Positions 1,528 to 33,957 of a DNA stretch of 34,070 nucleotides are shown here, one piece after another. Position 1 is the stretch's first letter. Each line of letters opens with the position of its first letter. This DNA comes from Prevotellaceae bacterium (lineage in GTDB: Bacteria > Bacteroidota > Bacteroidia > Bacteroidales > UBA932): contig JAISRS010000288.1 in the NCBI GenBank assembly GCA_031273485.1, forward strand, positions 1 through 34,070, written 5' to 3'. The notes under the pieces were generated by a model that worked only from the letters and a program-made list of their open reading frames with translations, searched no databases and was not told where the DNA came from. Made by a program: the position numbers and the translations under genes.

Positions 1528-1709
1528 GTATCAATATAATTGTTTTATGTGTTCTCCAATATTTGAGAGTTTAACGGCTTTCGATGGCACAACAGAAGGT
1601 AACTTGCTTAACAGCGGTAAAATATGGTAATCAAATTAATACTTTCTCATAACAGAGAAAGGAATTTATCCAAAAATAGATGAACTAAAAAGAAAATGAA
1701 TAGTAACCG

Positions 1710-2486: not shown

Positions 2487-2519
2487 AATCGCTGATTTCC
2501 TGATTTTTATAAATGAAAC

Positions 2520-3566
2520 ATGGCTCTGTCATTTTATCGTGGTAAAAAAGTTTTTGTCACAGGACATACCGGTTTTAAGGGAACATGGCTCTGTCATATC
2601 CTTTTGCATGCGGGCGCAGATGTGACAGGGTATGCACTTGAACCTCCTACAAAGCCCTCTCTCTTCGCACAAACCGGTTTGGCAAAAAAGATGCACTCGA
2701 TTATTGGTGATATTCGAGATAGAGAGGTGCTGATTGGGGCTATACAAGCGGTGATGCCCGACATACTTTTCCATCTCGCCGCGCAACCGCTGGTAAGATG
2801 CTCGTATCAGAAACCGGCTGAAACTTATGAAACTAATGTATTGGGGACGGTCAATGTCCTTGAAGCCATGCGATTCACCCGGTCTATCCGCTCAGTTGTC
2901 AATGTCACTACAGACAAGGTTTACGAAAATAAAGAATGGCTTTGGGGATACCGCGAAAATGAAAATTTATGCGGCTACGATCCCTATTCAAACAGCAAAT
3001 CTTGCAGCGAATTGGTGACAGCAAGTTACCGAAATTCTTTTTTCTCCAATAAAGATGATCCTGCTCTTTCTACAGCTCGGTCGGGTAATGTAATCGGAGG
3101 TGGAGACTATGCGACTGACCGAGTTATACCGGATTGCATCCGAGCTGCAATGTTCAGCAAGCAAATTATTCTGCGGAATCCACATTCTGTCAGGCCATAT
3201 CAGCATGTGTTGGAATGTCTCTCCGGTTACCTTTTACTTGCAGAAAAACAATATGATGATCCCGATCTTGCGGGAGCGTATAATTTTGGCCCGGATGAAT
3301 TAAATTGCATCACAACCGGTCAACTTGCGGAATTATTTTGTTCGGCATGGGGAGCAGGAGCTTGTTGGACGGCTCGGGAAGACAATGGCCCGCACGAAGC
3401 GGATTTACTCAAATTGGATTGTTCGAAGGCGAAAACAATATTGGGATGGAAACCTCGTTGGGATGTCAGGACAGCGGTAGAAAAAGTGATAGAGTTTGCT
3501 CGATGTGATAATGATACTGCGTATAAATACTGCCTTGATAAACAAGTGGAAGGATATTTTAAATAA
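2520..3566 (+). CDS. rfbG: CDP-glucose 4,6-dehydratase
   Basis: FYRGKKVFVTGHTGFKGTWL (GxxGxxG), the TTDKVY and YSNSK (YxxxK) SDR catalytic motifs, 348 aa, directly downstream of rfbF. Confidence 0.92.
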   Translation: MALSFYRGKKVFVTGHTGFKGTWLCHILLHAGADVTGYALEPPTKPSLFAQTGLAKKMHSIIGDIRDREVLIGAIQAVMPDILFHLAAQPLVRCSYQKPAETYETNVLGTVNVLEAMRFTRSIRSVVNVTTDKVYENKEWLWGYRENENLCGYDPYSNSKSCSELVTASYRNSFFSNKDDPALSTARSGNVIGGGDYATDRVIPDCIRAAMFSKQIILRNPHSVRPYQHVLECLSGYLLLAEKQYDDPDLAGAYNFGPDELNCITTGQLAELFCSAWGAGACWTAREDNGPHEADLLKLDCSKAKTILGWKPRWDVRTAVEKVIEFARCDNDTAYKYCLDKQVEGYFK

Positions 3567-3567
3567 A

Positions 3568-4101
3568 ATGATTATAGAAGATACACGCATTAACGGAGTT
3601 GAAGTCATTCACTCGCGGCCATTTAGAGACGACCGGGGATTTCTGAACCGGATCTTCTGCCAGGAAGAACTTGCAATAATCCGCTCCAATATAATAATTG
3701 CGCAGGCCAACCATTCGATGACCGCACTAAAAGGTACCGTCCGAGGGATGCACTTTCAGCATCCGCCTCATGCCGAAATGAAAATTGTGAGATGTGTGAA
3801 AGGCAGCATATTTGATGTTGCCGTAGATTTGCGGAAACATTCGCCAACATTTCTGCAATGGCACGGGGAAATACTATCTTCCGATAATATGAAAGCGCTT
3901 GTTGTGCCGGAAGGTTGCGCCCATGGGTTTCAGTCTTTGGAAGATGGAATTGAAATGATATATTTGCATACAAAGGCTTATTGCAAAGAAGCCGAGGAAA
4001 CGTTGCGCTATGATGATCCGAAAGTCGCCATACAGTGGCCGCTACCTGTTTTGCATATCTCGGTGAAAGATGTATCTTCGCCGCTCATAACTAACAACTA
4101 A
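3568..4101 (+). CDS. RmlC-like cupin sugar-nucleotide 3,5- (or 3- / 5-) epimerase family protein
   Basis: I start at the ATG at 3568 (MIIEDTRINGVEVI...), 1 nt after the rfbG stop, not at the tracked 3496 start, which would overlap rfbG. Motifs: RGMHFQ, KIVRCVKGSIFDVAVDLRKHSPTF, PEGCAHGF and the DP...I.WPLP tail, as in dTDP-4-dehydrorhamnose 3,5-epimerase. Confidence 0.88.
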   Translation: MIIEDTRINGVEVIHSRPFRDDRGFLNRIFCQEELAIIRSNIIIAQANHSMTALKGTVRGMHFQHPPHAEMKIVRCVKGSIFDVAVDLRKHSPTFLQWHGEILSSDNMKALVVPEGCAHGFQSLEDGIEMIYLHTKAYCKEAEETLRYDDPKVAIQWPLPVLHISVKDVSSPLITNN

Positions 4102-4112
4102 GAAAAATTTTT

Positions 4113-5336
4113 ATGAAATGTCGCCATTGTGGACAAGAACTGACTCAAGAATTTGTCAACTTGTATAATGCTCCGCCGTCGAATGCATATTTGACTGAAG
4201 AACAGCTGAATGAACCGGAAATATGCTATCCCCTTAGAATATTTGTATGCGATAAATGTTTTTTGGTTCAGATTGATGAGTACAAAAAATCTGCTGAGAT
4301 TTTTAGCTCTGAATATGCCTATTTCAGCTCTTATTCATCATTGTGGCTGAAACATGCACGTTCGTATGTCGAAAAGATGGTTCAAAAACTTGAACTGAAT
4401 GAACAGTCTTTTATTATCGAAATCGCAAGCAATGATGGATATTTGCTGCAATATGTTAAAGAAAAGAACATACCCTGCCTTGGTATCGAACCTACGGCTT
4501 CAACAGCTAAAGTGGCTAAGGATAAAGGAATTGATGTCTTAGAAGACTTTTTCGATTCCCGTATGGCATTGTCGCTCAAAAAAGCCGATTTGATTCTGGG
4601 AAATAATGTTTTGGCTCATGTTCCGGATATTAATGATTTTGTTAAGGGCATGAAAATCGCGCTAAAGCCCCAGGGCACTATCACGATGGAATTTCCGCAC
4701 CTGCTAAACTTAATCCAATATAATCAGTTTGATACTATTTATCATGAGCATTTTTCGTATCTTTCGTTAATGACGGTTCGAACTATTTTTGCATCGCAGG
4801 GCCTGAAAATATATGATGTGGAGGAACTCCCAACTCACGGCGGCAGTCTGAGGATTTATGCAACTCACGTCGAAAATGACATAAAGGCAGAAAAAACGGT
4901 CAATGATTTGATTGACAGAGAAAAACAGGCTCACTTGGATAGCATGGATGGATACAAAGGATTTGAACAAAAAATCCAAAAAATCAAATGGGATTTCTTG
5001 GATTTTTTGCTGCAGGCTCAACGCGATGGTAAAAAAATCGTTGCCTACGGCGCAGCTGCTAAGGGGAATACCTTTCTAAATTATTGCGGAGTTAAGGCTG
5101 ATGCTATACAGTTCGTGGTCGACGCTTCCCCGCATAAGCAAAATAAATTCCTGCCCCTTAGCCATATCCCCATTGTTTCGAAGGAACGATTGACGACGGA
5201 AAGAATAGATTATATCCTTATTTTGCCGTGGAATATCAAAAATGAAATCATAAATAGCTTAACATTCACTAACAGGAGGGGGGAGGTAAAGTGGGTTACA
5301 GCTATTCCAAAGCTGGAGTTATGGCACGCAGAGTGA
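4113..5336 (+). CDS. NDP-hexose C-methyltransferase family protein (TylC3/NovU-like architecture: N-terminal Zn ribbon, class I SAM domain, C-methyltransferase C-terminal domain)
   Basis: CRHCG...CDKCF four-Cys ribbon, YAYFSSYS motif, IIEIASNDGYLL SAM motif I, and a C-terminal AYGAAAKGNTFLNYCG...DASPHKQNKFLP...IPI Rossmann-like domain; 407 aa. Confidence 0.85.
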   Translation: MKCRHCGQELTQEFVNLYNAPPSNAYLTEEQLNEPEICYPLRIFVCDKCFLVQIDEYKKSAEIFSSEYAYFSSYSSLWLKHARSYVEKMVQKLELNEQSFIIEIASNDGYLLQYVKEKNIPCLGIEPTASTAKVAKDKGIDVLEDFFDSRMALSLKKADLILGNNVLAHVPDINDFVKGMKIALKPQGTITMEFPHLLNLIQYNQFDTIYHEHFSYLSLMTVRTIFASQGLKIYDVEELPTHGGSLRIYATHVENDIKAEKTVNDLIDREKQAHLDSMDGYKGFEQKIQKIKWDFLDFLLQAQRDGKKIVAYGAAAKGNTFLNYCGVKADAIQFVVDASPHKQNKFLPLSHIPIVSKERLTTERIDYILILPWNIKNEIINSLTFTNRRGEVKWVTAIPKLELWHAE

Positions 5337-5424
5337 GTGGTTGGTCTGTTAAACTTGAAACTCTCGGAATATAATGTTTTTTACGCCAATCGCATAGGGA
5401 TCGAAATTTAAATATGAAAATATC

Positions 5425-6603
5425 ATGAATCTTTTTTATCAATCAAATGTTCCTGCGAATCAAAATCTGTTATATAAAACGACCGAAGATGCCAAGAATG
5501 CCACTGTCGGTGAGTTGGATATACGTTTGGATGAGGCAAACGGTTTTATTTATAATCACGCCTTTGACCCTGATAAGGTAAATTATTCCGGAGAATATGA
5601 CAATAATCAAAATTGGTCGCCTTATTTTGCTGCCTATATTGACAGGCAAATTGATTACCTCGTGAGTAAATATATTCCGGAAGATTCGGTCATTGTAGAA
5701 GTGGGGTGTGGAAAAGGGTATTATGTTGAAAAACTCGTGCGAAAATTGAGTAATTGTACGGCGTATGGATTTGATACCAGCTATGTTTATGAAGAAGGTG
5801 AACCCCTCTTAAATAATCTTCAGTATTTCAAAGAGTATTATGATGGAAAATATGCATACCTGCGTCCGGATGTAGTTATCTGTCGTCATGTTATAGAGCA
5901 TATTCATAATCCTCTTGAATTTCTGAAAGAAATTCGGGCTACTATGCCGGAACATGCTTTGTTGTTTATAGAAACGCCGGATGTTAATTGGATATTGAAA
6001 AACACGGCGATTTTTGATTTCTTTTATGAACATTGCTCGTATTGGAATGAAAAGTCTATTGAATATGTTCTTCGGTTATCAGGTTTTGAAATCATTGAAT
6101 CAAAATGCGAATTTGGAGGACAGTATATGTGGATTGTATCCCGTGCAGTGAGCAGCGCTCCGATGCCGGCTGTTCATGACAACCATTTAAGCTATATGAA
6201 GAATTTATGCTGCAAATTTGCAAATGATCGAGTATGTGAAATCAATTCCGTTATGCATAGTTTGTATTTGTTAAAACAAAAAGGAACAGCAGTGTTTGTC
6301 TGGGGAGCTGGTGCCAAAGGAACAACATTTGTGAATTTGTTTGATGAACATAAACAGTTTGTATCTGCGCTTATTGATATTAGTCCGGCCAAACAAAATA
6401 AATTCGTTGGTAAAACATCGCACAAAGTACTGGAATCGATCTTTCTGATCAATATGTTAATAAGTAACAATACGGAGGGGGGGGTAATTCTTGTTTTAAA
6501 TGAAAATTATGTTTCAGAAGTTAACAGCCTGTTGATAGAATTGGACTTAAAATGTGTGGCTTACTCATATCCTGAATTTAAATCAATCGAAAAAATATTG
6601 TGA
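5425..6603 (+). CDS. Second SAM-dependent methyltransferase, paralogous to the preceding C-methyltransferase but lacking the Zn ribbon
   Basis: VVEVGCGKGYYVEKL SAM motif I. The C-terminal VWGAGAKGTTFVNLF...DISPAKQNKFVG aligns by eye with AYGAAAKGNTFLNYC...DASPHKQNKFLP of the 4113-5336 product. There are no N-terminal cysteines. Confidence 0.8.
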   Translation: MNLFYQSNVPANQNLLYKTTEDAKNATVGELDIRLDEANGFIYNHAFDPDKVNYSGEYDNNQNWSPYFAAYIDRQIDYLVSKYIPEDSVIVEVGCGKGYYVEKLVRKLSNCTAYGFDTSYVYEEGEPLLNNLQYFKEYYDGKYAYLRPDVVICRHVIEHIHNPLEFLKEIRATMPEHALLFIETPDVNWILKNTAIFDFFYEHCSYWNEKSIEYVLRLSGFEIIESKCEFGGQYMWIVSRAVSSAPMPAVHDNHLSYMKNLCCKFANDRVCEINSVMHSLYLLKQKGTAVFVWGAGAKGTTFVNLFDEHKQFVSALIDISPAKQNKFVGKTSHKVLESIFLINMLISNNTEGGVILVLNENYVSEVNSLLIELDLKCVAYSYPEFKSIEKIL

Positions 6604-7454
6604 TGCGTATACTGATTACCGGAGCTACCGGATTTATTGGTCGTCATGTCGTTGAGTATCTGCTCTCTCTGGGCAATCATTCGCTGATTACAACCGCAAT
6701 GAGCAGTGAAAAAGATGCGTTGTCTTTGTGCCCGTTACTGAAAAATACGAACTATATCTCTAAAAATCTTGACGAAAAAACCGATAACTATTATTCGTTT
6801 TTTTTAACTCCGGATTGTGTGATTCATTTGAGTTGGAGAGGATTGCCCAATTACGATGAACTGTTTCATATCGAACATAATCTTCCCGCTAATTATTATT
6901 TTATTAAAAATATGATACAGAATGGATTGTCTGATATCACCATCGCAGGAACTTGTTTTGAATATGGACTGCTAAACGGCTGTCTCAATGAAGAAATGCC
7001 TACGACACCTGTGACTGTTTATGGTTTGGCAAAAGATACACTCAGGAAATTCGTTGAAACATTGCAGCAACAATATTCCTTCAGTGTGAAATGGCTTAGA
7101 GTCTTTTACCCTTATGGGCATGGGCAAAGTGAAAAATCGCTTTGGACACAACTGGAGCAAGCTATAATCAATAAAAGGGAGCGATTCGACATGTCTTTAG
7201 GTGAACAGTTGCGGGATTATCTGCCATCAGAAACTGTTGCTGAATATATCGTGAAGGTGGCGCTTCAAAACGATGTGACAGGCATAATCAATTGCTGCAG
7301 TGGAAAACCCCTATCTGTTAGAAAATTTGTCGAGCTTTTTTTTGAAGAGCGAAGTTATAGTATATACTTGAATCGAGGTTTTTATCCATATCCCAAATAT
7401 GAACCTTTTGCTTTTTGGGGGGATAATGCAAAATTAAAACGTATAATAGGATAA
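6603..7454 (+). CDS. NAD(P)-dependent epimerase/dehydratase (SDR) family protein, probable sugar-nucleotide 4-ketoreductase
   Basis: MRILITGATGFIGRHVVEYL Rossmann motif and YGLAK (YxxxK). The ATG at 6603 overlaps the upstream TGA (6601-6603) by 1 nt, suggesting translational coupling. The tracked GTG at 6600 is less likely. Confidence 0.85.
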   Translation: MRILITGATGFIGRHVVEYLLSLGNHSLITTAMSSEKDALSLCPLLKNTNYISKNLDEKTDNYYSFFLTPDCVIHLSWRGLPNYDELFHIEHNLPANYYFIKNMIQNGLSDITIAGTCFEYGLLNGCLNEEMPTTPVTVYGLAKDTLRKFVETLQQQYSFSVKWLRVFYPYGHGQSEKSLWTQLEQAIINKRERFDMSLGEQLRDYLPSETVAEYIVKVALQNDVTGIINCCSGKPLSVRKFVELFFEERSYSIYLNRGFYPYPKYEPFAFWGDNAKLKRIIG

Positions 7455-7581
7455 TGGCAATAATCCGTGTATATTCTTTTTCAATGGAATGTGAATCTTG
7501 AAAAGAATAGACCTGCAATGAGAAAATCGCGACAATTATGATGATATTGAAGATGATCAACAAATAAACTCATATAATGCA

Positions 7582-8820
7582 ATGAATACTAAGCCCAAAT
7601 ATACAATTATTATCCCAACAAGAAATTCTCTTGAATATCTGAAAGATGCTATAGAATCCGTATTGTCTCAGCCTTTTTCGGATTACGAGCTTATTGTTAG
7701 TGATAATCATTCGGATGATGACACCCATGAGTATGTTAACTCTATTTCACATCCAAATCTCCGACTGATAAAGCCTGGAAAAGGGCTTTCTATGGTGGAT
7801 CACTGGGAATGGGCACTTACGTATGCAACGGGCGAATGGATTGTTTTTTTAGGTGCTGATGATGGTGTAATGCCCTATTTTTTTGAACTCGCCGAGTTTC
7901 TGACTCGCAAAGCTGAAAATAAAAATATCAAAGTAATAAATTCTGTTAGAGCTTACTTTTTTTGGGATGGATGTCAAAATGTATATGGAGACAAATCTAT
8001 CAGCTATGCAGCACATGCCAAATGCGTGGTAAGACAATCCAAATTAGAGTTGTTGGATGCAACTATCGGGCTAAGCAACTATCTTTATTTGCCTCAAATG
8101 TATACCGCTTCTATCGTACATATATCGCTCGTTCAAACCGCTAAAGCAAAAAATGACGGCGCTTTTTATAGTTCGCTCATTCCGGATGCTAATGGAGCAG
8201 CTATTATCTGCTCGATAGAAGATAAGTATCTTGAATCTCTTATACCATTGGGTTGGATCGGCAGTTCGCCTAAAAGTAATGGATTAATTTTTAGCATTGA
8301 TAAAGATAAGTTTAAAAAAGAAAATTCATTGAACTTCGATTCAACTATTATTCAATGGCATCCTTTAGCTGGAGTTTTTAATAAAGGTGTGGACGCCAGG
8401 AATGTTGATAATTTTAAAATGTATTTGTTTGAAGCATTAATGCAAACACAGCATTTGCAAAAACCTTTCTGGGCAAAAATATACAACTCAAGATGGTTTA
8501 AAACCATGCTTTTTGCAACAGTTTATAATCAAATAAAAAAAAAATCGAATGAAGTGGAGTTTTTGAAGGAAATCACCGCAATAAACAAAATTCCTTTCAG
8601 TTTGGTATTATTTTGTAGTTTCACTCTATCAAGGTTTGTTTGGGCTGTTTTAAAGAGTATGGATGTTATAATGAGAATTAAGAATGAAATATTCCTTAAA
8701 ACGATCCGATTGAAACTGCCTCATCGGCATGATTCCGAAATACGTCTTATGGATGCAAGTAATCGTATCCACAAATTAGAGGTGGAAAGAAACTTCATAC
8801 AAGGATTCATAAATAAATGA
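7582..8820 (+). CDS. Glycosyltransferase family 2 protein
   Basis: YTIIIPTRNSLEYLKDAIESVLSQPFSDYELIVSDNHSDDDT and FLGADD (DxD-type) are classic GT2 N-terminal domain features. The C-terminal half carries hydrophobic segments. Confidence 0.88.
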   Translation: MNTKPKYTIIIPTRNSLEYLKDAIESVLSQPFSDYELIVSDNHSDDDTHEYVNSISHPNLRLIKPGKGLSMVDHWEWALTYATGEWIVFLGADDGVMPYFFELAEFLTRKAENKNIKVINSVRAYFFWDGCQNVYGDKSISYAAHAKCVVRQSKLELLDATIGLSNYLYLPQMYTASIVHISLVQTAKAKNDGAFYSSLIPDANGAAIICSIEDKYLESLIPLGWIGSSPKSNGLIFSIDKDKFKKENSLNFDSTIIQWHPLAGVFNKGVDARNVDNFKMYLFEALMQTQHLQKPFWAKIYNSRWFKTMLFATVYNQIKKKSNEVEFLKEITAINKIPFSLVLFCSFTLSRFVWAVLKSMDVIMRIKNEIFLKTIRLKLPHRHDSEIRLMDASNRIHKLEVERNFIQGFINK

Positions 8821-8832
8821 AATGCCGGCGTT

Positions 8833-8856
8833 CTCCCTCGTTGGGAAACGAGGGAG
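8833..8856 (+). terminator. Perfect 10-bp stem / 4-nt loop hairpin just after the GT2 stop; possible terminator without a T-tract
   Basis: CTCCCTCGTT-GGGA-AACGAGGGAG read directly from the sequence. It is followed by AGCAAGAG rather than a U-run, so terminator function is uncertain. Confidence 0.4.
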
Positions 8857-9105
8857 AGCAAGAGAGTAAAAGTCATTGCATAGCCATACATCAGAGACAT
8901 AAAAACAGTAATGGACTCAGATTGCGCGTACAATCCGACATTATGTCGGTTATGCTTTAAAAATGGCGACATTCCGTAAGCATAAAACAAGTGATGCTGC
9001 CGGTTGCACGTATTTTTCAACCATTACCAAAGTAATGCTCCCGGAATGAACACAATTTCCGACAAAATGTCAGGTAATGCCTCCGGCGCATCAAAATGCA
9101 AATAT

Positions 9106-9395
9106 GTTTTTTCAATTTACAGTTGAATTGAAATCGCTTCATGCTGTCGTGTTCGATGCCGAAGAGATGGCTGTGAATCGGATAATAGTTGAATTGAAAA
9201 CTTGCAAGATTATTTAAACACCGTTCCAGTGTCCGGCTGTAAATCGGACACTGTTGGATTGAAATCGACTACACCAACATAGACAACAAGTTCGGCGAAT
9301 CTGTAAATCGGACAATGTTGAATTGAAACCACGGAAACGAGCTGGGTACTTTTTGTTTTGTGACACTGTAAATCAGACAATGTTTAATGATTCAA
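9106..9395 (+). CRISPR. Degenerate, cas-less mini-CRISPR-like array: about 5 repeats of about 30 nt separated by 34-35-nt unique spacers
   Basis: Repeat starts are 9106 (only the 3' 14 nt conserved), 9171, 9237, 9301 and 9366, a period of 64-66 nt. The best copy is CTGTAAATCGGACAATGTTGAATTGAAACC (9301-9330). The 9237 copy has 3 substitutions; the 9171 copy has 3 substitutions plus a 1-nt insertion; the 9366 copy has about 9 differences, mostly at its 3' end. The intervening segments are mutually unrelated. The repeat ends in ATTGAAA(C/T), the class 1 (Cas6-processed) 3' repeat signature. Confidence 0.5.
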
Positions 9396-9408
9396 TACGG
9401 TTTAATTT

Positions 9409-10157
9409 ATGGAATCAATTCATTCTTTTTATTTACCCCAGTTGCATAACGGGGAAAACGTGAATTTTCACGCCGAATCGCTCGAACAGTTGGACAAGGC
9501 TGATCCTGCAAAACTTGGCGTGGGAGAGCAAACGCTTGCGTATCGTGCTGCTTATGGCGACTTGAAATTTTCGGTTGACGTCTTTTCTGCCAGTGAACTT
9601 TCGCCCGAATCAAGTCGGCGGGACGCCGGTCGCGACCGCGCTTATTCGGCGTTTACATCTTTCGTGAAGGTATATGTCAATGACGATGACGAGGTCAAAT
9701 CCGTAGCCGCCGAGCGTGTTCTGGACGTTTCCGGAAGTCGAAACAGGAACTCGGCAATCCGCTTCATTTGGGACTGGCGAAGGAATCTACGGCGCTGACC
9801 AGTCTGTTGCGTAATCTCGAACCCTTTGCCGCCGACATCGAACGCATCGGCGCAACCAACCGGTTGAAACGCCTCGAAGAAGCCAATCAGGCATACATTG
9901 ATTTGCAGTTTGAGCGCTACATCGAAAAAAGCAGCAAACATTCGGGCGACGTCAAGGCGGCCCGCGCTGTTGCCGCCGCCTATAAGGACATCATCGACCG
10001 GATTAATGCGCAGATACTGCTGAACGGCGACGAAGGATTTGCTTCTTACGTGAAAGCGTAAAACGCCGTGATAGAACGGTACAGACTCATTCTGGCACAA
10101 CGTAAAGATCGCATCGGAAAAAATACGACAACTCCCGAAACGGAAACAAACGGATAG
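9409..10157 (+). pseudogene. Decayed gene for a roughly 245-aa uncharacterised Bacteroidota protein (recalled as DUF6261-like), with one frameshift and one in-frame stop
   Basis: ORF 9409-9798 and ORF 9768-10061 lie in adjacent frames and overlap. A 1-nt shift near the TTT run at 9728-9730 joins ...AAERVLDVF to RKSKQELGNPLHLGLAKESTALTSLL... After the TAA at 10059-10061 the same frame stays open and protein-like (NAVIERYRLILAQRKDRIGKN...) up to the TAG at 10155-10157. Confidence 0.6.
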
Positions 10158-10189
10158 ACAGTTGGGGAATTATAAATCCTTTAACAATT

Positions 10190-11134
10190 ATGATTGGATA
10201 CAACATATTGAATTTACTAAGTTTATTTAAATATCAAGCGGAGAAAATCAAGAAAACTCCGCGATATTTATTGACGAAACGTGTAGAGACCTATTTGCAG
10301 AAGCCTTGTCCCAATTTGGATGAAAACGACAGAAAGCAGTTTTTGAAATTTTTGCAATATCATTTGGTGAGTGTTTTCAACTATCCGTATATGGTGAAAT
10401 ATCGTCGCCGGAAAGTAAAGGTATTATCGGATGAGGAAAGGGGATTACCTTTTGTCCTGACGGAGAAAGGGCATCGCCTGTATTTTAAAAAAGGAATGAG
10501 GAAAGGAGAGATTGCTTCATTGTACAATAGTTTATGTGCCGAACAGGACGATCTGTCACCGCATAACTACGACTTCGATAAATTAACGATAACGGACGAA
10601 ACGGTTTTTGCCGATATAGGTTCGGCTGAAGGGAATTTCAGTCTTAAATATGTTGATGAAATAAAGAAACTGTATTTGTTTGAAACGGATGCCGAATGGA
10701 TTGAAGCATTAGAAGCAACATTTTATCCGTGGAAAGATAAAGTGACAATAGTCAACAAATATGTTTCCGACCGTGATGAAGGTGAGTATATATCCCTTGA
10801 TACTTATTTTCTTAACAGGGAAAAGCCAACACTTTTAAAATTGGATGTGGAAGGGGCAGAGAAATCTGTCCTGTCCGGGGCAAATCAGACACTGAACGAT
10901 GGAATAGACGACATATTGCTATGTACTTATCATCGTAATGGCGATACTCAATATTTTTCCGAGTGGTTGCGTAACAGGAATTATGACATCCGGACTTCTA
11001 ACGGGTATATGTTATATCTATGGGAAAAGCCAAACTATAGTTTAGAACCTCCTTTTGATTTTAGAAGAGGTTTAATTCATGCAAGATTGAAATCGCTCAA
11101 AAATGAGAATAAAAATAAAAAATCAGAAGATTAG
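10190..11134 (+). CDS. FkbM family methyltransferase
   Basis: FADIGSAEGNFSLKY (SAM motif I) and LLKLDVEGAEKSVLSGA are hallmark FkbM-domain motifs. Confidence 0.85.
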   Translation: MIGYNILNLLSLFKYQAEKIKKTPRYLLTKRVETYLQKPCPNLDENDRKQFLKFLQYHLVSVFNYPYMVKYRRRKVKVLSDEERGLPFVLTEKGHRLYFKKGMRKGEIASLYNSLCAEQDDLSPHNYDFDKLTITDETVFADIGSAEGNFSLKYVDEIKKLYLFETDAEWIEALEATFYPWKDKVTIVNKYVSDRDEGEYISLDTYFLNREKPTLLKLDVEGAEKSVLSGANQTLNDGIDDILLCTYHRNGDTQYFSEWLRNRNYDIRTSNGYMLYLWEKPNYSLEPPFDFRRGLIHARLKSLKNENKNKKSED

Positions 11135-11239
11135 TACACGAAATATGATATCCCGCAGTCTTGAATATGGTTTACCGGAAGCGGAATTTAAAATGCGGAA
11201 CGCCTTTGTGACGAATTTATTAATTTAATATTATTCGCT

Positions 11240-12142
11240 ATGTACAACATTCCCGTATTATTTTTGATATTTAACCGCCCGGACACTACGGCGCAGGTTT
11301 TTGAGCGTATCCGGCAAATCAAACCCACCCATTTATACGTGGCGGCAGACGGCGCAAGAGAAGGACGTCCGGATGAAGTAAAGCGTTGTACGGAAGTACG
11401 TGCTATTATTGAGGGGATAGATTGGCAATGCGAATTGAAAACTTTGTACAGGGAGAAAAATCTGGGATGTAAAATCGCTGTTTCGGAGGCTATTACCTGG
11501 TTTTTTGAACAAGAAGAATATGGCGTCATTTTGGAAGATGACTGTTTGCCGGATTTATCGTTTTTCCCTTTTTGTGAAGAATTGCTGATTCGTTACAAAG
11601 ACGACGACAGAATCGGACATATCAGCGGCGACTGCTTCTTTCCCGGAATATTCAAAAACGGATTAAGTTACGATTTTTGTTTCTTCGCGCATATTTGGGG
11701 CTGGGCGTCCTGGCGCAGAGTTTGGAAAAATTATGATATTCATTTCACCTATTGGGAGCAGGCTCAAAAGAACAAAAGAAAGACAAAAAATCTATTTCGA
11801 AACTTAAAAGAAAAAGTATATTTTTCTTCCTTTATTTCCGATGCTGTAAGCGGAAGAGGTATGGATACATGGGATGCTCAATATTTATTTATGTTGCGAA
11901 CCCAAAATCAACTTTCCATTTATCCGTCAGTGAATTTAGTTACCAATATTGGTTTCAACAATCCGAATGCTACAAACACAAAAAAAAGCGGTACGAAAGA
12001 CTGTATTCCGAGCAAACCCGTCCATTTTCCATTAAAACATCCCGAGTATGTAATGGATAATAAAGAAATAGATAATCGGATAATTACGTATAATTTTTTT
12101 TCCGTAAGGCGGACGTTGAGATATTTATTGCATGATTATTAA
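11240..12142 (+). CDS. Nucleotide-diphospho-sugar transferase (GT-A fold, GnT-I/GT2-like)
   Basis: PVLFLIFNRPDTTAQVFERIRQIKPTHLYVAADGAR and the ILEDDCLP acidic (DxD-type) motif; 300 aa. Confidence 0.75.
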   Translation: MYNIPVLFLIFNRPDTTAQVFERIRQIKPTHLYVAADGAREGRPDEVKRCTEVRAIIEGIDWQCELKTLYREKNLGCKIAVSEAITWFFEQEEYGVILEDDCLPDLSFFPFCEELLIRYKDDDRIGHISGDCFFPGIFKNGLSYDFCFFAHIWGWASWRRVWKNYDIHFTYWEQAQKNKRKTKNLFRNLKEKVYFSSFISDAVSGRGMDTWDAQYLFMLRTQNQLSIYPSVNLVTNIGFNNPNATNTKKSGTKDCIPSKPVHFPLKHPEYVMDNKEIDNRIITYNFFSVRRTLRYLLHDY

Positions 12143-12146
12143 TGAG

Positions 12147-12392
12147 CTATATTAAAGAAAGTTCTTCGATTTCAAACACTAATGCCGATTTCTCTAAAAA
12201 CTCCCGCTTTCATTTTGAAATTTGACTTGCTTCCAGTTCGTAACGTAAACTTAGTTCACTCAATGACGACGGTTCCTTGATGGTTTCTATCGCCACTTTT
12301 GCCTTAAAAGATGATGTAAATTTTCTCTTACTTTTCATACAACAAAATTAATACTTTTTTGTCTTAACTCGCTGTCCGAATTTTGGGGAACA
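12147..12392 (-). mobile_element. Truncated IS3-family insertion sequence remnant: possible terminal repeat plus an orfA N-terminal HTH fragment carrying an in-frame stop
   Basis: The minus strand from the ATG at 12338 reads MKSKRKFTSSFKAKVAIETIKEPSSLSELSLRYELEASQISK-stop(TGA, 12210-12212)-KREFLEKSALVFEIEELSLI-stop. This matches the IS3/IS911 OrfA pattern (...KFS.EFKAK.A.E......L.ELA....V...QIS.WK...LE.A..VF), with the conserved Trp codon TGG read as TGA. There is no orfB. TGTTCCCCAAAATTCGGACAGCGAG (minus strand, 12392 downwards) may be the IS end (starts TG, contains GGACA). Confidence 0.7.
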
Positions 12393-12395
12393 TTA

Positions 12396-12403
12396 TACTT
12401 TTG
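12396..12403 (+). promoter_or_regulatory. Candidate Bacteroides-type -7 promoter box (TAnnTTTG) for the 12420 gene
   Basis: TACTTTTG lies 17 nt upstream of the ATG at 12420 and immediately outside the putative IS end. No convincing -33 TTTG at the canonical spacing. Confidence 0.3.
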
Positions 12404-12419
12404 TGTAACTACAAAGAAG

Positions 12420-13277
12420 ATGAAAATGAAAATAACTATAGTCATACCCGTATATAAAAAGGATTTATCGGAAGATGAAATTAAATCCCTGAAACAATGT
12501 TTTAACATATTGTATCGTTACTCCGTTACTTTTGTTACACATTGTAAACTTGATACTGCTGTTTATACGCAATTAGCCGATGAAACAAACGTCAATCCGA
12601 AATTTGAATATTTTGATAAGGAATTTTTCTTAAGTATTAATTCTTATAATCGCCTTTTGCTTAGCCGTGATTTTTATTCGAGGTTTACGACGGAAGATTA
12701 TATATTTATTTATCAATTAGATGGATTTGTTTTCAAAGACGAATTGGAAGATTGGTGCAAAAGAGGATTTGATTATATCGGCGCTCCATGGCTGATTCAC
12801 TATGGGCGAGGTAAATACGAAAAAAGCAATCGACTGTATAAAGTGGGTAATGGTGGCGTTTCGTTACGCAGGGTTTCCGCTTTTTTAGAACGTTTCGACA
12901 GGAACATGCCATTGTCCGTTTTCCCTTTTTATGTAAAAAATATACGAAAAAAGAAACTTATACCAATGATGATTAAAACATTAAAACTTCTTTCTTTTCT
13001 AATATTCTCTCCTAAAACCATAGAATATTGTTTACTGCATTTGACCGAGGATGTTCTTCCCGAAGATTGCTTTTGGGCTGATGCTCTAAGTAACACAAAG
13101 ATTGCCCTCAAAGTTCCGGATGTAACGACAGCCGCAAGTTTTTGTTTTGAGATAGCGCCTTCCTGTCTCTATCAACTAACGGACAATAAATTGCCGTTTG
13201 CGTGTCATGCGTATAAAAAGTATGAATATGAAAGTTTTTGGGAAAAACACATTCGAACGCATAACAATGGCAGCTGA
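12420..13277 (+). CDS. DUF5672-like putative glycosyltransferase
   Basis: ITIVIPVYKKDLSEDEIKSLKQC..., GFDYIGAPW and VGNGGVSLRR resemble the DUF5672 family from memory. The ORF is clean and in the operon orientation. Confidence 0.6.
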   Translation: MKMKITIVIPVYKKDLSEDEIKSLKQCFNILYRYSVTFVTHCKLDTAVYTQLADETNVNPKFEYFDKEFFLSINSYNRLLLSRDFYSRFTTEDYIFIYQLDGFVFKDELEDWCKRGFDYIGAPWLIHYGRGKYEKSNRLYKVGNGGVSLRRVSAFLERFDRNMPLSVFPFYVKNIRKKKLIPMMIKTLKLLSFLIFSPKTIEYCLLHLTEDVLPEDCFWADALSNTKIALKVPDVTTAASFCFEIAPSCLYQLTDNKLPFACHAYKKYEYESFWEKHIRTHNNGS

Positions 13278-13343
13278 TTTTTTAAGTTGCTATAGGTAAA
13301 TTGAACACAAAATAAAAAAACGCGAAACCGTTTAAATTAAATC

Positions 13344-14201
13344 ATGCAACTTCAAGAAAAAAAGAGTTACGATGCTCATCAACACTGGTTAGAAAAACGA
13401 TTTGAAAAAAATCAAATCATCGAGCAATTGAAAGAAATATATGCAACAATCAAAAAGTTGGATACAAATCCAGTTTATGCCCACTTATTGCCTCTGTTAC
13501 AAAAGAAAGACACATGGTTGACGATGGGGGATAGCTATGGAACCGATGCTACACGGATTGCTCCTCTTTGTAAAGAGGCATTGCCAGCTGATATTGGTGT
13601 TGCATTTTTAGAAATAGCACAAAAAGAAGGGTTTATAAAAGCATACTCACAACAAAATGCCGAAAAAATGACTTTTGAAGATAATACTTTTGACTTTTTT
13701 CTATGTCGTGAAACCTATCATCATTTTCCCCGTCCCTATATTGCTGTTTACGAAATGTTACGCTGCGCAAAGAAAGGCATAGTTATTTCGGAGCCTCTTG
13801 ATCCGATATTTAAAATGCCTTTTCTTCTGTTTCTATGTAATATTTTGGATACGAAGAAAATGCCATTAAGAAGTCGTAAATTTTGGAAAAATAGATTTTC
13901 ATTTGAGATTGTCGGAAATTATGTATATAAAGTTTCTCAACGTGAATTTGAAAAAATAGCCATGGGAATAGGGCTTCCTGCTGTTGCATTTTATTATTTT
14001 AATGGAGTTGAAAAAAATAATATAAAGTCGGTGCTTAGAAATATTCTGACTAAATTGCGAATTATCCCCTATCAAAGACTTGTTGCCGTTTTATTTAAAG
14101 AACTTCCGGACGAAAAAACCAAAGAGAATCTTCGAAAAAAAGGTTATTATTATTATGAGTTACCCCAAAACCCTTATTTGAATGATGTACAAGCTGATTA
14201 G
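13344..14201 (+). CDS. Class I SAM-dependent methyltransferase (divergent motif I)
   Basis: MTFEDNTFDFFLCRETYHHFPRPYIAVYEMLRCAKKGIVISEP matches the Methyltransf_11-type post-I/II/III region. Motif I (WLTMGDSYGTDA) is atypical. Confidence 0.6.
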   Translation: MQLQEKKSYDAHQHWLEKRFEKNQIIEQLKEIYATIKKLDTNPVYAHLLPLLQKKDTWLTMGDSYGTDATRIAPLCKEALPADIGVAFLEIAQKEGFIKAYSQQNAEKMTFEDNTFDFFLCRETYHHFPRPYIAVYEMLRCAKKGIVISEPLDPIFKMPFLLFLCNILDTKKMPLRSRKFWKNRFSFEIVGNYVYKVSQREFEKIAMGIGLPAVAFYYFNGVEKNNIKSVLRNILTKLRIIPYQRLVAVLFKELPDEKTKENLRKKGYYYYELPQNPYLNDVQAD

Positions 14202-14363
14202 CGACAATCATTGTTGACAAAAGTTACGCATACATTGACTTATGTCAGTCATCCTTTGCCCGTCACTTGGAATTTTCTTATCTTCGCATCATTATAAAAC
14301 GGAACGATCATGAATACAGTCAACATTTGCCTCATGGAAACTGTAACATTGAGACCATCATAA

Positions 14364-15905
14364 ATGACTGAAAAAAGTAAATCTCGAAAAACGGCAATCA
14401 TTGCCGGAGCAGGTCCGGCCGGTCTGACAGCCGCTCTGGAATTGCTGCGGACAACGGACATCCACCCCGTCGTCTATGAATCTACCGACGATATAGGAGG
14501 CATATCCAAAACCGTCTGCTACAAAGGAAACCGCATGGATATCGGCGGACACCGTTTCTTCTCGAAAGATGACACGATTATGCAATGGTGGGCAAAGATG
14601 ATGCCCGTACAGAACACACCCTTACCCTCACGCTCCGACGAGGAACGCATCATGCTCGTGCGTCGGCGCGTATCAAGGATATTTTACCTTCGCAAGTTCT
14701 TCGAATACCCTATTGCACTGAAACCGGAAACGTTTCGCAATATGGGACTCCGGCGTACAATCCAAGCCGGAGCAGGCTATCTGCAATCCCTCCTTTTCAA
14801 ACGCAAGGAACTGTCGCTGGAAGATTTTTATATCAACCGCTTTGGGAAACCTCTCTACAAAATGTTCTTCGAAGACTATACGGAAAAGGTTTGGGGCATC
14901 CATCCGTCGGCTTTGGGCGCAGACTGGGGAAGTCAGCGGGTGAAAGGGCTGTCGCTGGCTGCGGTGCTGAAGGATATTGTGAGTAAACGGTTCGCTTCAT
15001 CAAAGGATATTCGTCAAAAACAAATTGAGACATCGTTGATAGAGCAATTTATTTATCCCAAATACGGACCGGGGCAGTTGTGGGAAATCGTGGCACGGGA
15101 GATCGTCGATCTCTCCGGCGAATTACATAAAAAACATGAAGTTATTGAGGTGAATGTTGAGAGTATGCGTGTCGTATCTGTGACAGTCCGTTCCGACAGT
15201 GGAGAAACAGAAGCTCGGTCTTGCGACTGTTTTATCTCGTCGATGCCACTGAAAGATTTGGTGGCAAGCCTCCGCGGCACGGAAATACCCGAAGACGTAA
15301 AGCAAGTGGCTCAGGCATTACCTTATCGCGACTTTATCACCGTCGGGCTATTAGTCAACAAACTAAAAATCAGAAACCGGACAAAGATCGAAACCTGCAA
15401 AAATCGTATCCCCGACACGTGGATATATATCCAAGAACGGGATGTGAAAATAGGTCGTATGCAAATATTTAACAACTGGTCGCCCTACTTGGTTGCCGAC
15501 AACGAAAACACGATGTGGATTGGGCTGGAATATTTCTGCACGGAAGGCGACGAGATGTGGAAAATGCAGAAAGATGATTTCATCAAGATGGCAATTAGTG
15601 AGTTGGTAAAGATTGACATTCTGGAAGAGAAGGATGTTCTGGATGCGACGCAGATAAAAGTCAGAAAAGCGTATCCTTCTTATTTTGGGAGTTATTACCA
15701 ATTGGATACGGTAAAATTATTCTTAGACAAAATAGAAAATTTATATTGTGTAGGAAGGAACGGTCAGCATCGTTATAATAATATGGATCACTCCATGATG
15801 ACAGCCATGGTCGCCGTTAACAACATCCGAAACGACGTGAAAACAAAAGATAACATTTGGTCTGTTAATACAGAAGAAGAATATCACGAAACTAAAAACA
15901 AATGA
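14364..15905 (+). CDS. NAD(P)/FAD-dependent oxidoreductase (amine-oxidase / UDP-galactopyranose-mutase-like fold)
   Basis: [20 protein letters not shown] dinucleotide-binding motif followed by [13 protein letters not shown] and GGHRFFSK; 513 aa. The C-terminal [15 protein letters not shown] is typical of this family. Confidence 0.8.
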
Positions 15906-15960
15906 CAATTTTTATTCCATGGAATGTCAGTAAAACGAACTATTTACTATTCGCAACACA

Positions 15961-16731: not shown

Positions 16732-16794
16732 ACTTGCTTGTAAGCCAATTATTCATATTAACATGATTGATTTATCCACATTATATTAAATAAG

Positions 16795-33682: not shown

Positions 33683-33683
33683 A

Positions 33684-33767
33684 GTATGAAGTATGAGGTA
33701 TAAAGTATGAATAATAAACGTTGAACGATGAATTATGAACGATAAACGATGAATGATAAACATTAAA
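33684..33767 (+). repeat. Array of 12 tandem degenerate heptamers NNATRAA starting 2 nt after the SusD stop
   Basis: GTATGAA GTATGAG GTATAAA GTATGAA TAATAAA CGTTGAA CGATGAA TTATGAA CGATAAA CGATGAA TGATAAA CATTAAA, read directly in register. Confidence 0.85.
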
Positions 33768-33801
33768 ATGCGAACTTTGAGAAGTCGTTTATTTTTTCAG
33801 C

Positions 33802-33834: not shown

Positions 33835-33850
33835 AATTATTTAAACCTCA

Positions 33851-33955: not shown

Positions 33956-33957
33956 TT

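What the first reader, a model, noticed from the sequence alone, without database searches (positions are those of the whole stretch)
9106..9395. Cas-less, eroding mini-CRISPR-like array inside a glycan biosynthesis locus
Five direct repeats of about 30 nt occur at a 64-66-nt period (starts 9106, 9171, 9237, 9301, 9366), separated by 34-35-nt segments unrelated to one another. The best copy is CTGTAAATCGGACAATGTTGAATTGAAACC. It ends in ATTGAAAC; the 9106 and 9237 copies end in ATTGAAAT. This is the conserved repeat 3' end that becomes the 8-nt crRNA 5' handle in Cas6-processed type I/III arrays. No cas gene lies anywhere in the 34 kb, and every copy is mutated: 3 substitutions; 3 substitutions plus 1 insertion; about 9 differences in the last copy; only the 3' 14 nt survive in the first. 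The first copy also carries ATTTACAG, the reverse complement of the repeat 5' end. Core-like AATC[CG]GACA motifs recur upstream near 8932 and 9058, but out of phase. The array sits in a GC-rich island next to a decayed gene, so it may be a fossil or orphan array. Alternatively it is a repeat family that merely mimics CRISPR spacing.
Basis: partly seen in the sequence, partly recalled or inferred. Interest (0 to 1): 0.7.

Follow-up and report, generated by a model that had tools for sequence, protein, structure and literature searches.

The report
Stranded type I-B CRISPR mini-array
A real but tiny piece of a CRISPR immune-memory array (four spacers) sits without its leader or cas genes between a sugar-chain gene and a dead gene in a Bacteroidales chromosome; such isolated or orphan arrays are a known, fairly ordinary phenomenon.

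Summary
Three full and two partial ~29-30-nt direct repeats lie at 64-66-nt spacing (9122-9394, + strand), separated by four unrelated 35-36-nt spacers.

The repeat is not a mimic. It is 24-26/30 identical to the 30-nt repeat of three long arrays (67-72 repeats, period 64-69). These arrays are in Chitinophaga sp., Edaphocola sp. and Candidatus Symbiothrix, where the repeat follows cas4-cas1b-cas2, cas1b-cas2 or cas2 in the same orientation. So this is a fragment of a type I-B-family CRISPR array.

It lacks the leader that those three arrays share, and it lacks their -7 promoter box. There are no cas genes anywhere in the 34 kb, which is probably a whole contig. Compared with array-free relatives, it is about 250-265 nt of extra DNA between a conserved upstream element and the ATG of a DUF6261 pseudogene. 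No spacer matched phage, plasmid or IMG/VR sequence, or the window itself.

Most likely it is a stranded array fragment that cannot grow. It would be inert unless I-B Cas proteins are encoded elsewhere in the genome, and that could not be tested.

An Edaphocola genome that carries the full system also has a similar leaderless mini-array whose first repeat is cut at the same position. That coincidence is unexplained.

Verdict: a new member of a known kind, of modest interest.

The parts
9122..9388 (+). Whole CRISPR-derived block: partial repeat, then four spacers alternating with three full repeats, then a final partial repeat.
   Evidence: It is extra DNA relative to array-free DUF6261 loci.
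9122..9134 (+). c1: only the 3' 13 nt of a repeat (GTTGAATTGAAAT), in phase, including the 8-nt handle ATTGAAAT.
   Evidence: The 16 nt before it match the repeat at 3/16.
9135..9170 (+). Spacer S1 (36 nt; 35 if the repeat is read one base longer).
   Evidence: No hits.
9171..9200 (+). c2: full 30-nt repeat CTGTGAATCGGATAATAGTTGAATTGAAAA.
   Evidence: 26/30 to the Chitinophaga repeat, 25/30 to Edaphocola, 24/30 to Symbiothrix.
9201..9236 (+). Spacer S2 (36 nt).
9237..9265 (+). c3: 29-nt repeat CTGTAAATCGGACACTGTTGGATTGAAAT.
   Evidence: 24-25/30 to the references.
9266..9300 (+). Spacer S3 (35 nt).
9301..9329 (+). c4: 29-nt repeat CTGTAAATCGGACAATGTTGAATTGAAAC.
   Evidence: 25-26/30 to the references. 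Unstructured as RNA.
9330..9365 (+). Spacer S4 (36 nt).
9366..9384 (+). c5: the 5' 19 nt of a repeat (CTGTAAATCAGACAATGTT). Beyond about 9385-9388 the sequence merges into the native DUF6261 5' region.
   Evidence: The last 45 nt before the ATG align with L016 and L002 (5-11 of 2000 shuffles reach the score).
9108..9122 (+). Left junction: TTTTTCAATTTACAG, 12/15 complementary to the repeat 5' end. It forms an A/U-rich hairpin with the c1 remnant (DNA arms 9110-9117 and 9126-9133).
   Evidence: I5; -8.1 kcal/mol, z -2.4. Window 9096-9135 also resembles a native heptad-repeat arm in L001 (0 of 2000 shuffles).
9035..9116 (+). Context, not CRISPR: a conserved ~80-nt element found near DUF6261 genes (core CCGACAAAATGTCAGGTAATGCCTCCGG). 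It marks the native left flank.
   Evidence: nhmmer E 7e-14. It ends 48-60 nt before the ATG in L014, L002 and L016 but 292 nt before it here.
9409..10154 (+). Context: DUF6261 pseudogene, with a 1-nt deletion near 9730-9732 and TAA at 10059-10061. Homology continues to the old stop at 10152-10154.
8830..8859 (+). Context: 13-bp G+C-rich hairpin just after the GT2 gene (7582-8820), with no U-tract. It is a possible barrier to read-through into the array.
   Evidence: -24.1 kcal/mol, z -5.2.

Best explanation
This is a genuine fragment of a type I-B-family CRISPR array, with four spacers, three complete repeats and two end-truncated repeats.

It lies in the 5' region of a DUF6261 gene inside a glycan-synthesis cluster of a Bacteroidales chromosome. 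Its position is between a conserved native upstream element and the gene's ATG.

It came without a leader. It therefore lacks the integration signals and the -7 promoter box found in cas-linked arrays of this family, and it cannot acquire spacers. That last step is inferred.

It can be transcribed only by read-through on the + strand, in the sense orientation for crRNA (inferred).

In a cell with I-B proteins, Cas6b would cut 8 nt before each repeat end. This would give AUUGAAAN-spacer crRNAs for Cascade and Cas3 (established for I-B generally, not tested here).

I judge it most likely a stranded, no-longer-growing remnant. It was probably acquired by illegitimate or short-homology recombination of array DNA. 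It is functionally inert unless cognate I-B cas genes exist elsewhere in the genome.
For: **Repeat family shown**
- c2-c4 are 24-26/30 identical to the repeats of three long arrays. Those arrays have 67-72 repeats, period 64-69 and spacers of 34-39 nt.
- The Chitinophaga and Edaphocola arrays lie directly downstream of profile-confirmed cas genes in the same orientation: cas4, cas1b (449 and 430 bits against a cut-off of 304) and cas2. In Symbiothrix, cas2 and a cas1 3' end are read from the sequence only.
- The window's period is 64-66 nt and its spacers are 35-36 nt.
- The repeat RNA is unstructured, as reported for I-B repeats (PMC5965381; B. fragilis type IB, PMC5704556).

**No leader or promoter**
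- A profile built from the three real leaders finds only its own sources (E 1e-45 to 1e-51) and nothing in the window at E <= 10.
- TAnnTTTG sits at -57/-56 in two of the real leaders and is absent from 8821-9408.

**No cas or defence genes in 34 kb**.

**Insert-like position**
- The native element ends at 9116 and the ATG is 292 nt away, against 48-60 nt in L014, L002 and L016.
- None of seven other DUF6261 loci has any repeat copy.
- The sequence after c5 aligns with the native 5' regions.

**Unstable neighbourhood**
- The adjacent gene is dead.
- Relatives carry unrelated DNA or an IS1 element after the same GT2 gene.

**Degenerate and truncated copies are typical of the old ends of real arrays**.
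Against: - The rest of the genome is unseen, so I cannot tell 'isolated but usable' from 'orphan fossil'.
- All four repeats that precede a spacer keep ATTGAAA intact. The array is also in the sense orientation with the operon. Both fit retained function, although the lack of changes in the handle is not significant (about 0.17 by a simple count).
- An Edaphocola genome with a complete I-B system carries a similar leaderless mini-array. Its first repeat is cut at the same position, which hints at selection or a specific mechanism rather than random stranding.
- No donor array with the exact window repeat was found in any collection.
- The recombination route is inferred from short junction similarities only.
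Confidence: 0.6

Rival explanations
1. It is a working isolated array. The genome encodes type I-B Cas proteins on another contig. The mini-array is transcribed by read-through from the glycan operon and processed by Cas6b, and its crRNAs (at least S2-S4) still guide Cascade and Cas3 against invaders.
For: - The handles (ATTGAAA) are intact in c1-c4.
- The array is in the sense orientation, co-directional with every gene from 247 to 19248.
- The window is a single 34-kb contig, so cas genes could lie elsewhere.
- Edaphocola has both a full I-B locus (L005) and a leaderless mini-array among housekeeping genes (L010).
- Isolated arrays are known to function in trans (PMC13142298; Listeria RliB, PMC3886909).
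- A minimal I-B crRNA needs only a 7-nt 5' handle plus the spacer (PMC4326828).
Against: - No -7 promoter box is present, and a strong hairpin lies upstream.
- The repeats differ from each other at about 6 of 30 columns, including a 1-nt length difference.
- c1 lacks the 5' part that Cas6 enzymes usually bind, so the 5' end of S1 may never be made.
- No spacer has a detectable target.
- No array with this exact repeat exists in the collections searched.
Confidence: 0.25
2. It is a de novo array made in situ. The host's Cas1-Cas2 integrated spacers off-target into a native sequence that resembled a repeat, creating a new array at this site.
For: - This is a recognised route to isolated arrays (reviewed in PMC13142298).
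- The left junction resembles a native heptad-repeat arm that looks like the repeat 3' end.
- The array is short and has no leader.
Against: - Repeats made this way are copies of the native pseudo-repeat. Here c2-c4 are 80-87% identical to canonical I-B repeats over their full length.
- The native 5' regions of six relatives show no significant similarity to the repeat (p 0.12-0.9).
- c5 lacks the 3' 10 nt that c1-c4 share, and c1 lacks the 5' half. Neither is expected from faithful repeat duplication.
- There is no leader-like sequence.
Confidence: 0.05
3. It is a regulatory crRNA-like mini-array (CreA/CreR type). Its degenerate repeats flank spacers that pair partially with a promoter, so that Cascade represses a gene such as DUF6261 or a glycan gene.
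For: - Mini-arrays with degenerate repeats are common around I-B loci (PMC10120712).
- This one sits immediately upstream of a gene.
Against: - It is not in or near a cas locus.
- It has four spacers, where such elements nearly always have one (only 12 longer cases in PMC10120712).
- No spacer has a seed match of 10 nt or more in the window. Best ungapped identities of 20-22/35 fall within the shuffled null of 19-24.
- The adjacent gene is a pseudogene.
- Seven other DUF6261 loci lack any such array.
Confidence: 0.03
4. It is a non-CRISPR repeat (protein-binding iterons, an intergenic repeat family or a structured RNA) that only mimics CRISPR spacing.
For: - The region is rich in other dispersed intergenic repeats.
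- The copies are imperfect.
- No spacer target was found.
Against: - c2-c4 match cas-linked I-B repeats over their full length at 24-26/30, with the same length, period and orientation.
- There is no Rfam match.
- The repeat is absent from all related array-free loci.
Confidence: 0.03

Closest known systems
Cas-linked type I-B CRISPR arrays of Bacteroidota (Chitinophaga sp. sic0106 L013/L011; Edaphocola sp. L005; Candidatus Symbiothrix sp. L009; compare B. fragilis type IB, 29-bp repeat and ~37-nt spacers, PMC5704556)
   Same: - The repeat belongs to the same family, [CG]T.T.AATCGGACAA..(G/T)TTGAATTGAAA[TC], at 24-26/30 identity.
- Repeat length is 29-30 nt, period 64-66 nt and spacers 35-36 nt.
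- The repeat RNA is unstructured and ends in ATTGAAAN.
- The transcribed strand is the same.
- Degenerate and truncated copies resemble those at the trailer ends of these arrays.
   Different: - It has only 4 spacers, against 67-72 repeats.
- It lacks the conserved leader (GTTCTTTGACATATT ... GTTGTCGA-N-TCGACAAC ... T-run).
- It has no -7 box and no adjacent cas genes.
- Its first repeat lacks the 5' half.
- Three of its copies are 29 nt rather than 30 nt.
Isolated and orphan CRISPR arrays ('CRISPR arrays away from cas genes', as summarised in PMC13142298; P. aeruginosa CR3)
   Same: - The array lies far from, or without, cas genes.
- Its repeat is related to cas-linked arrays.
- The proposed origins are the same: mobile-element or recombination transfer, cas loss, or off-target integration.
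   Different: - The well-studied functional isolated arrays keep a leader more than 70% identical to the cas-linked one, and they keep acquiring spacers. This one has no leader.
- Here the host's own cas status is unknown.
Leaderless mini-array in Edaphocola sp. (L010, 7780-7638, minus strand)
   Same: - It has the same repeat family and the same layout. The first copy is reduced to the 3' ~13 nt (GTTGAATTGAAgc), in phase.
- Its spacers are 35 nt, and its last copy is degenerate at the 3' end.
- It has no leader and no -7 box, and it sits among ordinary chromosomal genes (dnaX, dnaN).
   Different: - It has two spacers, not four.
- Its genome demonstrably carries a full I-B locus with an identical repeat.
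- It is not next to a DUF6261 gene.
Listeria RliB-CRISPR (PMC3886909)
   Same: It is a short cas-less array with 29-nt repeats and ~35-nt spacers at a chromosomal site, and it is usable only with cas genes encoded in trans.
   Different: - RliB is conserved at one locus across the genus.
- It is expressed from its own promoter and processed by PNPase.
- Its spacers match phages.
- None of these properties is shown here.
B. fragilis 'orphan' 3-repeat array upstream of hipAB (PMC5704556)
   Same: It is a short cas-less repeat-spacer element in a Bacteroidales genome, sited just upstream of a gene.
   Different: - Its repeat is 24 bp and is not tied to a cas-linked family.
- It is conserved across strains.
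- The window's repeat is clearly I-B-derived, and it was found at only one locus.
Regulatory crRNA-like mini-arrays (CreA, CreR; PMC10120712)
   Same: They have degenerate repeats flanking spacer-length sequence and no leader.
   Different: - Those elements sit inside or beside cas loci.
- They usually have one spacer, with a partial PAM-flanked target in a nearby promoter.
- None of this is met here.

Membership tests
CRISPR array (type I-B repeat family) | Several direct repeats of 23-50 nt with near-constant length and spacing | tested here: met
   Three full copies (29-30 nt) and two partial copies at a 64-66-nt period. Never seen in shuffles.
CRISPR array (type I-B repeat family) | Repeats (near-)identical to one another | tested here: inconclusive
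   c2-c4 differ at about 6 of 30 columns, including a 1-nt indel. This is below the usual standard for an active array, but it matches the trailer ends of the reference arrays.
CRISPR array (type I-B repeat family) | Unique spacers of uniform length | tested here: met
   S1-S4 are 35-36 nt with no mutual similarity beyond weak edge effects. Reference spacers are 34-39 nt.
CRISPR array (type I-B repeat family) | Repeat homologous to repeats of arrays that adjoin cas genes | tested here: met
   24-26/30 identity to arrays downstream of cas4, cas1b (430-449 bits, cut-off 304) and cas2. The Symbiothrix cas genes were read from the sequence only.
CRISPR array (type I-B repeat family) | Adjacent cas genes | tested here: not met
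   Pfam and PADLOC scans of the window's ORFs find none. The only PADLOC hits are generic helicase matches of a DEAD/DbpA RNA helicase.
CRISPR array (type I-B repeat family) | Leader with promoter and integration signals upstream of the first repeat | tested here: not met
   The leader profile hits only the three reference loci. TAnnTTTG is absent from 8821-9408.
CRISPR array (type I-B repeat family) | Spacers match mobile elements (protospacers) | tested here: inconclusive
   No hit better than E = 1 in 50,697 phage records or E = 3 in 72,556 plasmid records. There were no exact hits for 22-mers in IMG/VR. Most spacers in nature have no known match.
CRISPR array (type I-B repeat family) | Transcription and Cas6b processing to crRNAs with an 8-nt 5' handle | not testable with these tools
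   Needs RNA data. The handle sequence ATTGAAA is intact in c1-c4.
Isolated array (cas genes elsewhere in the genome) versus orphan array (no cas genes at all) | Presence of cognate cas genes on other replicons or contigs | not testable with these tools
   The window appears to be one whole 34,070-nt contig. Its proteins are not retrievable from the contig index.
Regulatory crRNA-like mini-array (CreA/CreR type) | Located within or beside a cas locus | tested here: not met
Regulatory crRNA-like mini-array (CreA/CreR type) | Spacer with a partial, seed-anchored match to a nearby promoter | tested here: not met
   No seed of 10 nt or more. Best identities of 20-22/35 fall within the shuffled null of 19-24. 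Only the window could be searched.
De novo array from off-target spacer integration | The repeat equals a pre-existing native sequence at the site | tested here: not met
   Native 5' regions of six related DUF6261 genes are not repeat-like (p 0.12-0.9). The direct ancestor allele is unavailable.

The most novel reading that the evidence does not exclude
Leaderless mini-arrays of this I-B repeat family may be a recurrent and specifically generated or selected cassette, not random debris.

Two cases from different orders share one layout: the window (Bacteroidales) and Edaphocola L010 (Chitinophagales).
- Both begin with a repeat cut at the same nucleotide, so that only GTTGAATTGAA... remains.
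- Both then carry a whole number of spacer-repeat units.
- Both end in a repeat degenerate at its 3' end.

This layout would fit a circular spacer-repeat excision product, or another array-derived intermediate, that is opened at a fixed site in the repeat and re-inserted into the chromosome. It would then act as 'parked' immune memory expressed by host read-through.
Probability: 0.07. Interest if true: 0.65.

Novelty: new member of a known kind. Interest (0 to 1): 0.3.

Why it matters
- It shows that a naked-eye CRISPR call can be verified without the host genome, by tying the repeat to cas-linked arrays in other taxa.
- It documents a type I-B repeat and leader family shared by Chitinophagaceae and Bacteroidales related to termite-gut lineages.
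- It gives a clean example of array DNA lodged inside a surface-glycan locus next to a freshly dead gene. Such fragments are raw material for studying how arrays break up, move and decay. If cas genes exist elsewhere in the genome, they also bear on how immune memory can be kept away from the cas locus.
- It does not change current understanding, because isolated and orphan arrays are already well documented.

Tried and rejected
1. **Rfam.** At gathering thresholds and at E <= 10 on 8700-9500 there were only chance-level hits.
2. **Strict repeat pattern.** It found 0 hits in JGI metagenome contigs and IMG/VR. A looser pattern in IMG/VR gave 7 single matches, the number expected by chance, all in coding-like DNA.
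3. **Single genome hits.** L003, L004, L006, L007, L008 and L012 are chance matches inside genes.
4. **DUF6261 loci.** The search for related loci with a DUF6261 alignment in metagenomes returned nothing usable. I used exact-protein look-ups instead.
5. **Is the array a general feature of DUF6261 upstream regions?** No. Seven other loci lack it.
6. **Are the upstream AATC[CG]GACA motifs decayed repeats or a decayed leader?** No. They belong to an ~80-nt element present in array-free loci. Its profile does not hit the real leaders or the L010 flank.
7. **Is there a repeat-like native target site?** Not supported.
8. **Synteny test across strains.** The closest GT2 relatives (75% and 68% identity) carry different DNA after the gene, so conservation could not be tested.
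9. **Look-ups of the window's own proteins.** None is on record, nor is the closest DUF6261 homologue P0001.
10. **Self-targets and shared spacers.** The spacers have no self-target in the window and share nothing with the reference arrays.
11. **Retro-insertion of a Cas6-processed RNA.** I considered this and set it aside. The left end lies 13 nt, not 8 nt, from the repeat end, and L010's last repeat extends past the cleavage site.
Full report
**1. What is in the sequence**

Between a family-2 glycosyltransferase gene (7582-8820) and a DUF6261 reading frame (from 9409) lies a 588-nt non-coding stretch.

On its + strand there are five copies of a ~29-30-nt unit:
- c1 is a 3' fragment only, GTTGAATTGAAAT, at 9122-9134.
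- c2 is 9171-9200 (30 nt).
- c3 is 9237-9265 (29 nt).
- c4 is 9301-9329 (29 nt).
- c5 is 9366-9394, where only the first 19 nt are convincing.

Start-to-start distances are 66, 64 and 65 nt. The intervening 35-36-nt segments are unrelated to each other.

Shuffled windows never give the 29-mer at up to 3 mismatches.

**2. The repeat is a bona fide CRISPR repeat**

I scanned one genome from each of 185,579 species with AATCGGAYA-N2-4-GTTGRATTGAAA. This returned two loci with 67 matches each, plus a third array that matched the pattern only once.
- Edaphocola sp. (L005) has CTTTTAATCGGACAAGAGTTGAATTGAAAT.
- Chitinophaga sp. sic0106 (L013, continuing into L011) has CTCTTAATCGGACAATAGTTGAATTGAAAT.
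- Candidatus Symbiothrix sp. (L009) has GTGTTAATCGGACAATTTTTGAATTGAAAT.

These arrays have 67-72 repeats, a period of 64-69 nt and spacers of 34-39 nt.

Immediately upstream, in the same orientation, lie a cas7-like gene (weak, sub-threshold match), cas4, cas1 and cas2 in Chitinophaga, and cas1 and cas2 in Edaphocola. In Symbiothrix an 87-codon ORF read as cas2, and what looks like a cas1 3' end, lie there; neither was run against a profile. The two Cas1 proteins score 449 and 430 bits on the type I-B Cas1 model, whose cut-off is 304.

The window's full copies are 24-26/30 identical to these repeats. They share the repeats' length, phase and transcribed strand, and like them are unstructured as RNA. 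Unstructured repeats are reported for I-B (PMC5965381; PMC5704556).

The 'mere mimic' alternative is therefore rejected. Other single matches from the scan lie inside genes and are chance.

**3. What the mini-array lacks**

*Leader.* The three cas-linked arrays share a strongly conserved leader across two orders, with blocks GTTCTTTGACATATT, GTTGTCGA...TCGACAAC and a T-run. A profile built from it recovers only its three sources (E 1e-45 to 1e-51) and nothing in the window at E <= 10.

*Promoter.* The Bacteroidota -7 box TAnnTTTG (consensus from my own knowledge) sits at -57/-56 from the first repeat in two of the leaders. It is absent from all of 8821-9408.

*cas genes.* No cas or other defence gene is present in the 34 kb. 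The window carries glycan-synthesis genes, rubrerythrin, Fur, thioredoxin, dnaE, Sua5, a DEAD/DbpA helicase and a SusC/SusD pair, so it is an ordinary Bacteroidota chromosome segment.

The window length equals the longest contig recorded for its own protein. It is thus probably a whole contig, and nothing can be said about cas genes elsewhere in the genome.

**4. How it sits in its surroundings**

DUF6261 genes of related Bacteroidales (48-83% identical) often lie inside glycan clusters. Their GC content is mostly above that of their neighbours.

Most of these genes are preceded by a conserved ~80-nt element with core CYGACAAAATGTCAGTTRATGC. In L014, L002 and L016 it ends 48-60 nt before the ATG. 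In the window it spans 9035-9116 and ends 292 nt before the ATG.

None of the seven other DUF6261 loci contains any copy of the CRISPR repeat.

The last 45 nt before the window's ATG, including the 3' part of c5, align with the native 5' regions of L016 and L002 (5-11 of 2000 shuffles reach the score).

The repeat-spacer block from 9122 to about 9384 is therefore about 250-265 nt of extra DNA, bounded by a repeat 3' fragment on the left and a repeat 5' fragment on the right.

Its profile hits neither the real leaders nor the flank of the Edaphocola mini-array.

The neighbourhood is unstable:
- The DUF6261 gene carries a 1-nt deletion near 9731 and a TAA at 10059-10061, yet remains 83% identical to an intact homologue, with homology running on to the old stop at 10152-10154.
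- The nearest relatives of the GT2 gene (75% and 68% identity) are followed by unrelated DNA or an IS1 element.

**5. Degeneracy**

The copies differ from one another at about six columns, including a 1-nt length difference.

This need not mean erosion in place. The trailer ends of the reference arrays show the same features:
- five mutated terminal repeats in Symbiothrix;
- a 29-nt repeat with a 1-nt deletion in Chitinophaga;
- a 5'-truncated last repeat, also in Chitinophaga.

All four repeats that precede a spacer keep ATTGAAA. With so few changes this is not statistically meaningful (about 0.17).

**6. Spacers**

- No match better than chance was found in 50,697 phage records (best E = 1) or 72,556 plasmid records (best E = 3).
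- 22-mers from each spacer gave no exact hit in IMG/VR.
- No spacer is shared with the reference arrays.
- Nothing in the window matches above a shuffled null, and no seed of 10 nt or more was found.

This neither supports nor refutes acquisition, because most spacers lack known targets.

**7. Mechanism**

*Established for I-B.* The array transcript is cut by Cas6b 8 nt before each repeat end. The resulting crRNA (8-nt handle plus spacer) guides Cascade and Cas3 (PMC5965381). In Haloferax a 7-nt handle plus the spacer suffices (PMC4326828).

*Shown here.* The window's repeats are in the sense orientation and co-directional with the whole operon.

*Inferred.*
- With no leader the block cannot acquire spacers.
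- With no promoter box it depends on read-through past a strong hairpin at 8830-8859.
- c1 lacks the repeat's 5' part, so S1 may not be processed.

I consider a stranded, non-growing fragment most likely (0.6). It was probably inserted by illegitimate or short-homology recombination. The left junction resembles a native heptad-repeat arm that looks like the repeat 3' end.

A still-usable isolated array is the main rival (0.25). Telling the two apart needs the rest of the genome. Off-target de novo formation, a regulatory mini-array and a non-CRISPR repeat are each unlikely, for the reasons given under the rival explanations.

**8. An unexplained parallel**

The Edaphocola genome has the full I-B locus. 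On another contig, between ordinary chromosomal genes (an AAA-domain gene and dnaX on one side, dnaN further off; the ORF on the other side was not scanned), it also has a leaderless mini-array. That array has a partial first repeat GTTGAATTGAAgc, cut at the same nucleotide as c1 and in phase. It is followed by 35 nt, a full repeat, another 35 nt, and a repeat degenerate at its 3' end.

Two independent cases with the same cut point could be coincidence, selection for the handle-coding parts, or a specific mechanism.

**9. Comparison and verdict**

The feature belongs with isolated and orphan CRISPR arrays. This is a documented class with three proposed origins: mobile-element or recombination transfer, cas loss, and off-target integration (PMC13142298 and the work it cites).

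- It resembles Listeria RliB (PMC3886909) and the B. fragilis orphan array (PMC5704556) only in being short and cas-less.
- It fails the defining features of regulatory mini-arrays (PMC10120712).

It is a new member of a known kind. The finding is real and correctly interpreted, but of modest interest (0.3).

Noticed in passing
window 8923-9116 (best copy 9035-9116); also L002 3081-3160, L014 2771-2851, L016 2217-2296, L019 3707-3786, L017 3753-3831, L001 973-1054 and 4857-4932: A conserved ~80-nt intergenic element (GATGCCC..GGATACA..CYGACAAAATGTCAGTTRATGCTCCCGGAAGG..TTGAAAG) lies mostly 50-250 nt upstream of DUF6261 genes. In the window, sub-units GT[GA]ATGC..CCGG repeat at 41-42-nt spacing (8991, 9032, 9074). 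It is not in Rfam and is unrelated to the CRISPR leader or repeat. Its function is unknown; it could be a promoter or operator, or an RNA element.
   Followed up: partly
window 9409-10154: The DUF6261 gene is a fresh pseudogene, with a 1-nt deletion near 9730-9732 and a CAA-to-TAA change at 10059-10061. It is otherwise 83% identical to an intact 254-aa homologue. DUF6261 genes recur inside glycan clusters of related Bacteroidales and mostly have a higher GC content than their neighbours.
   Followed up: partly
L010 7780-7638 (minus strand), Edaphocola sp. contig DASSSY010000003.1: A leaderless two-spacer mini-array of the same repeat family lies upstream of an AAA-domain gene, with dnaX and dnaN further along the contig, in a genome that also has the full I-B locus on another contig. 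Its first repeat is truncated at the same nucleotide as the window's c1.
   Followed up: partly
L009 7294-7505 (minus strand), L005 1744-1951, L013 3358-3565: The type I-B leaders of Symbiothrix (Bacteroidales) and two Chitinophagaceae are strongly conserved. Shared blocks are GTTCTTTGACATATT, a GTTGTCGA...TCGACAAC hairpin and a T-run. A TAnnTTTG box sits at -57/-56 in two of them.
   Followed up: partly
L011 189-217 and 311-329 (Chitinophaga array trailer): A genuine long array ends with a repeat carrying a 1-nt deletion and then a 5'-truncated last repeat (ACAATAGTTGAATTAAAAC) after a shortened 27-nt spacer. The array is followed by a tRNA-like sequence.
   Followed up: no
window 33682-33960: A large imperfect palindrome lies after the SusD gene. 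Arms of 7-nt tandem repeats (AAGTATG / AACGATG on one side, GTTCATC on the other) flank a G+C-rich hairpin (GCAGCCCCGGCAGG...CCTGCCGGGGCT). Similar heptad-repeat arms occur in L001 (about 1040-1130) and L019 (3620-3700).
   Followed up: no
window 8830-8859: A 13-bp G+C-rich hairpin (-24 kcal/mol, z -5.2) lies 10 nt after the GT2 stop codon, with no following T-run.
   Followed up: partly
L021 6423-7128: In a relative that shares the methyltransferase/epimerase, CmcI and GT2 gene set, an IS1-family transposase sits directly after the GT2 gene. This is the position where the window has the array and pseudogene.
   Followed up: no
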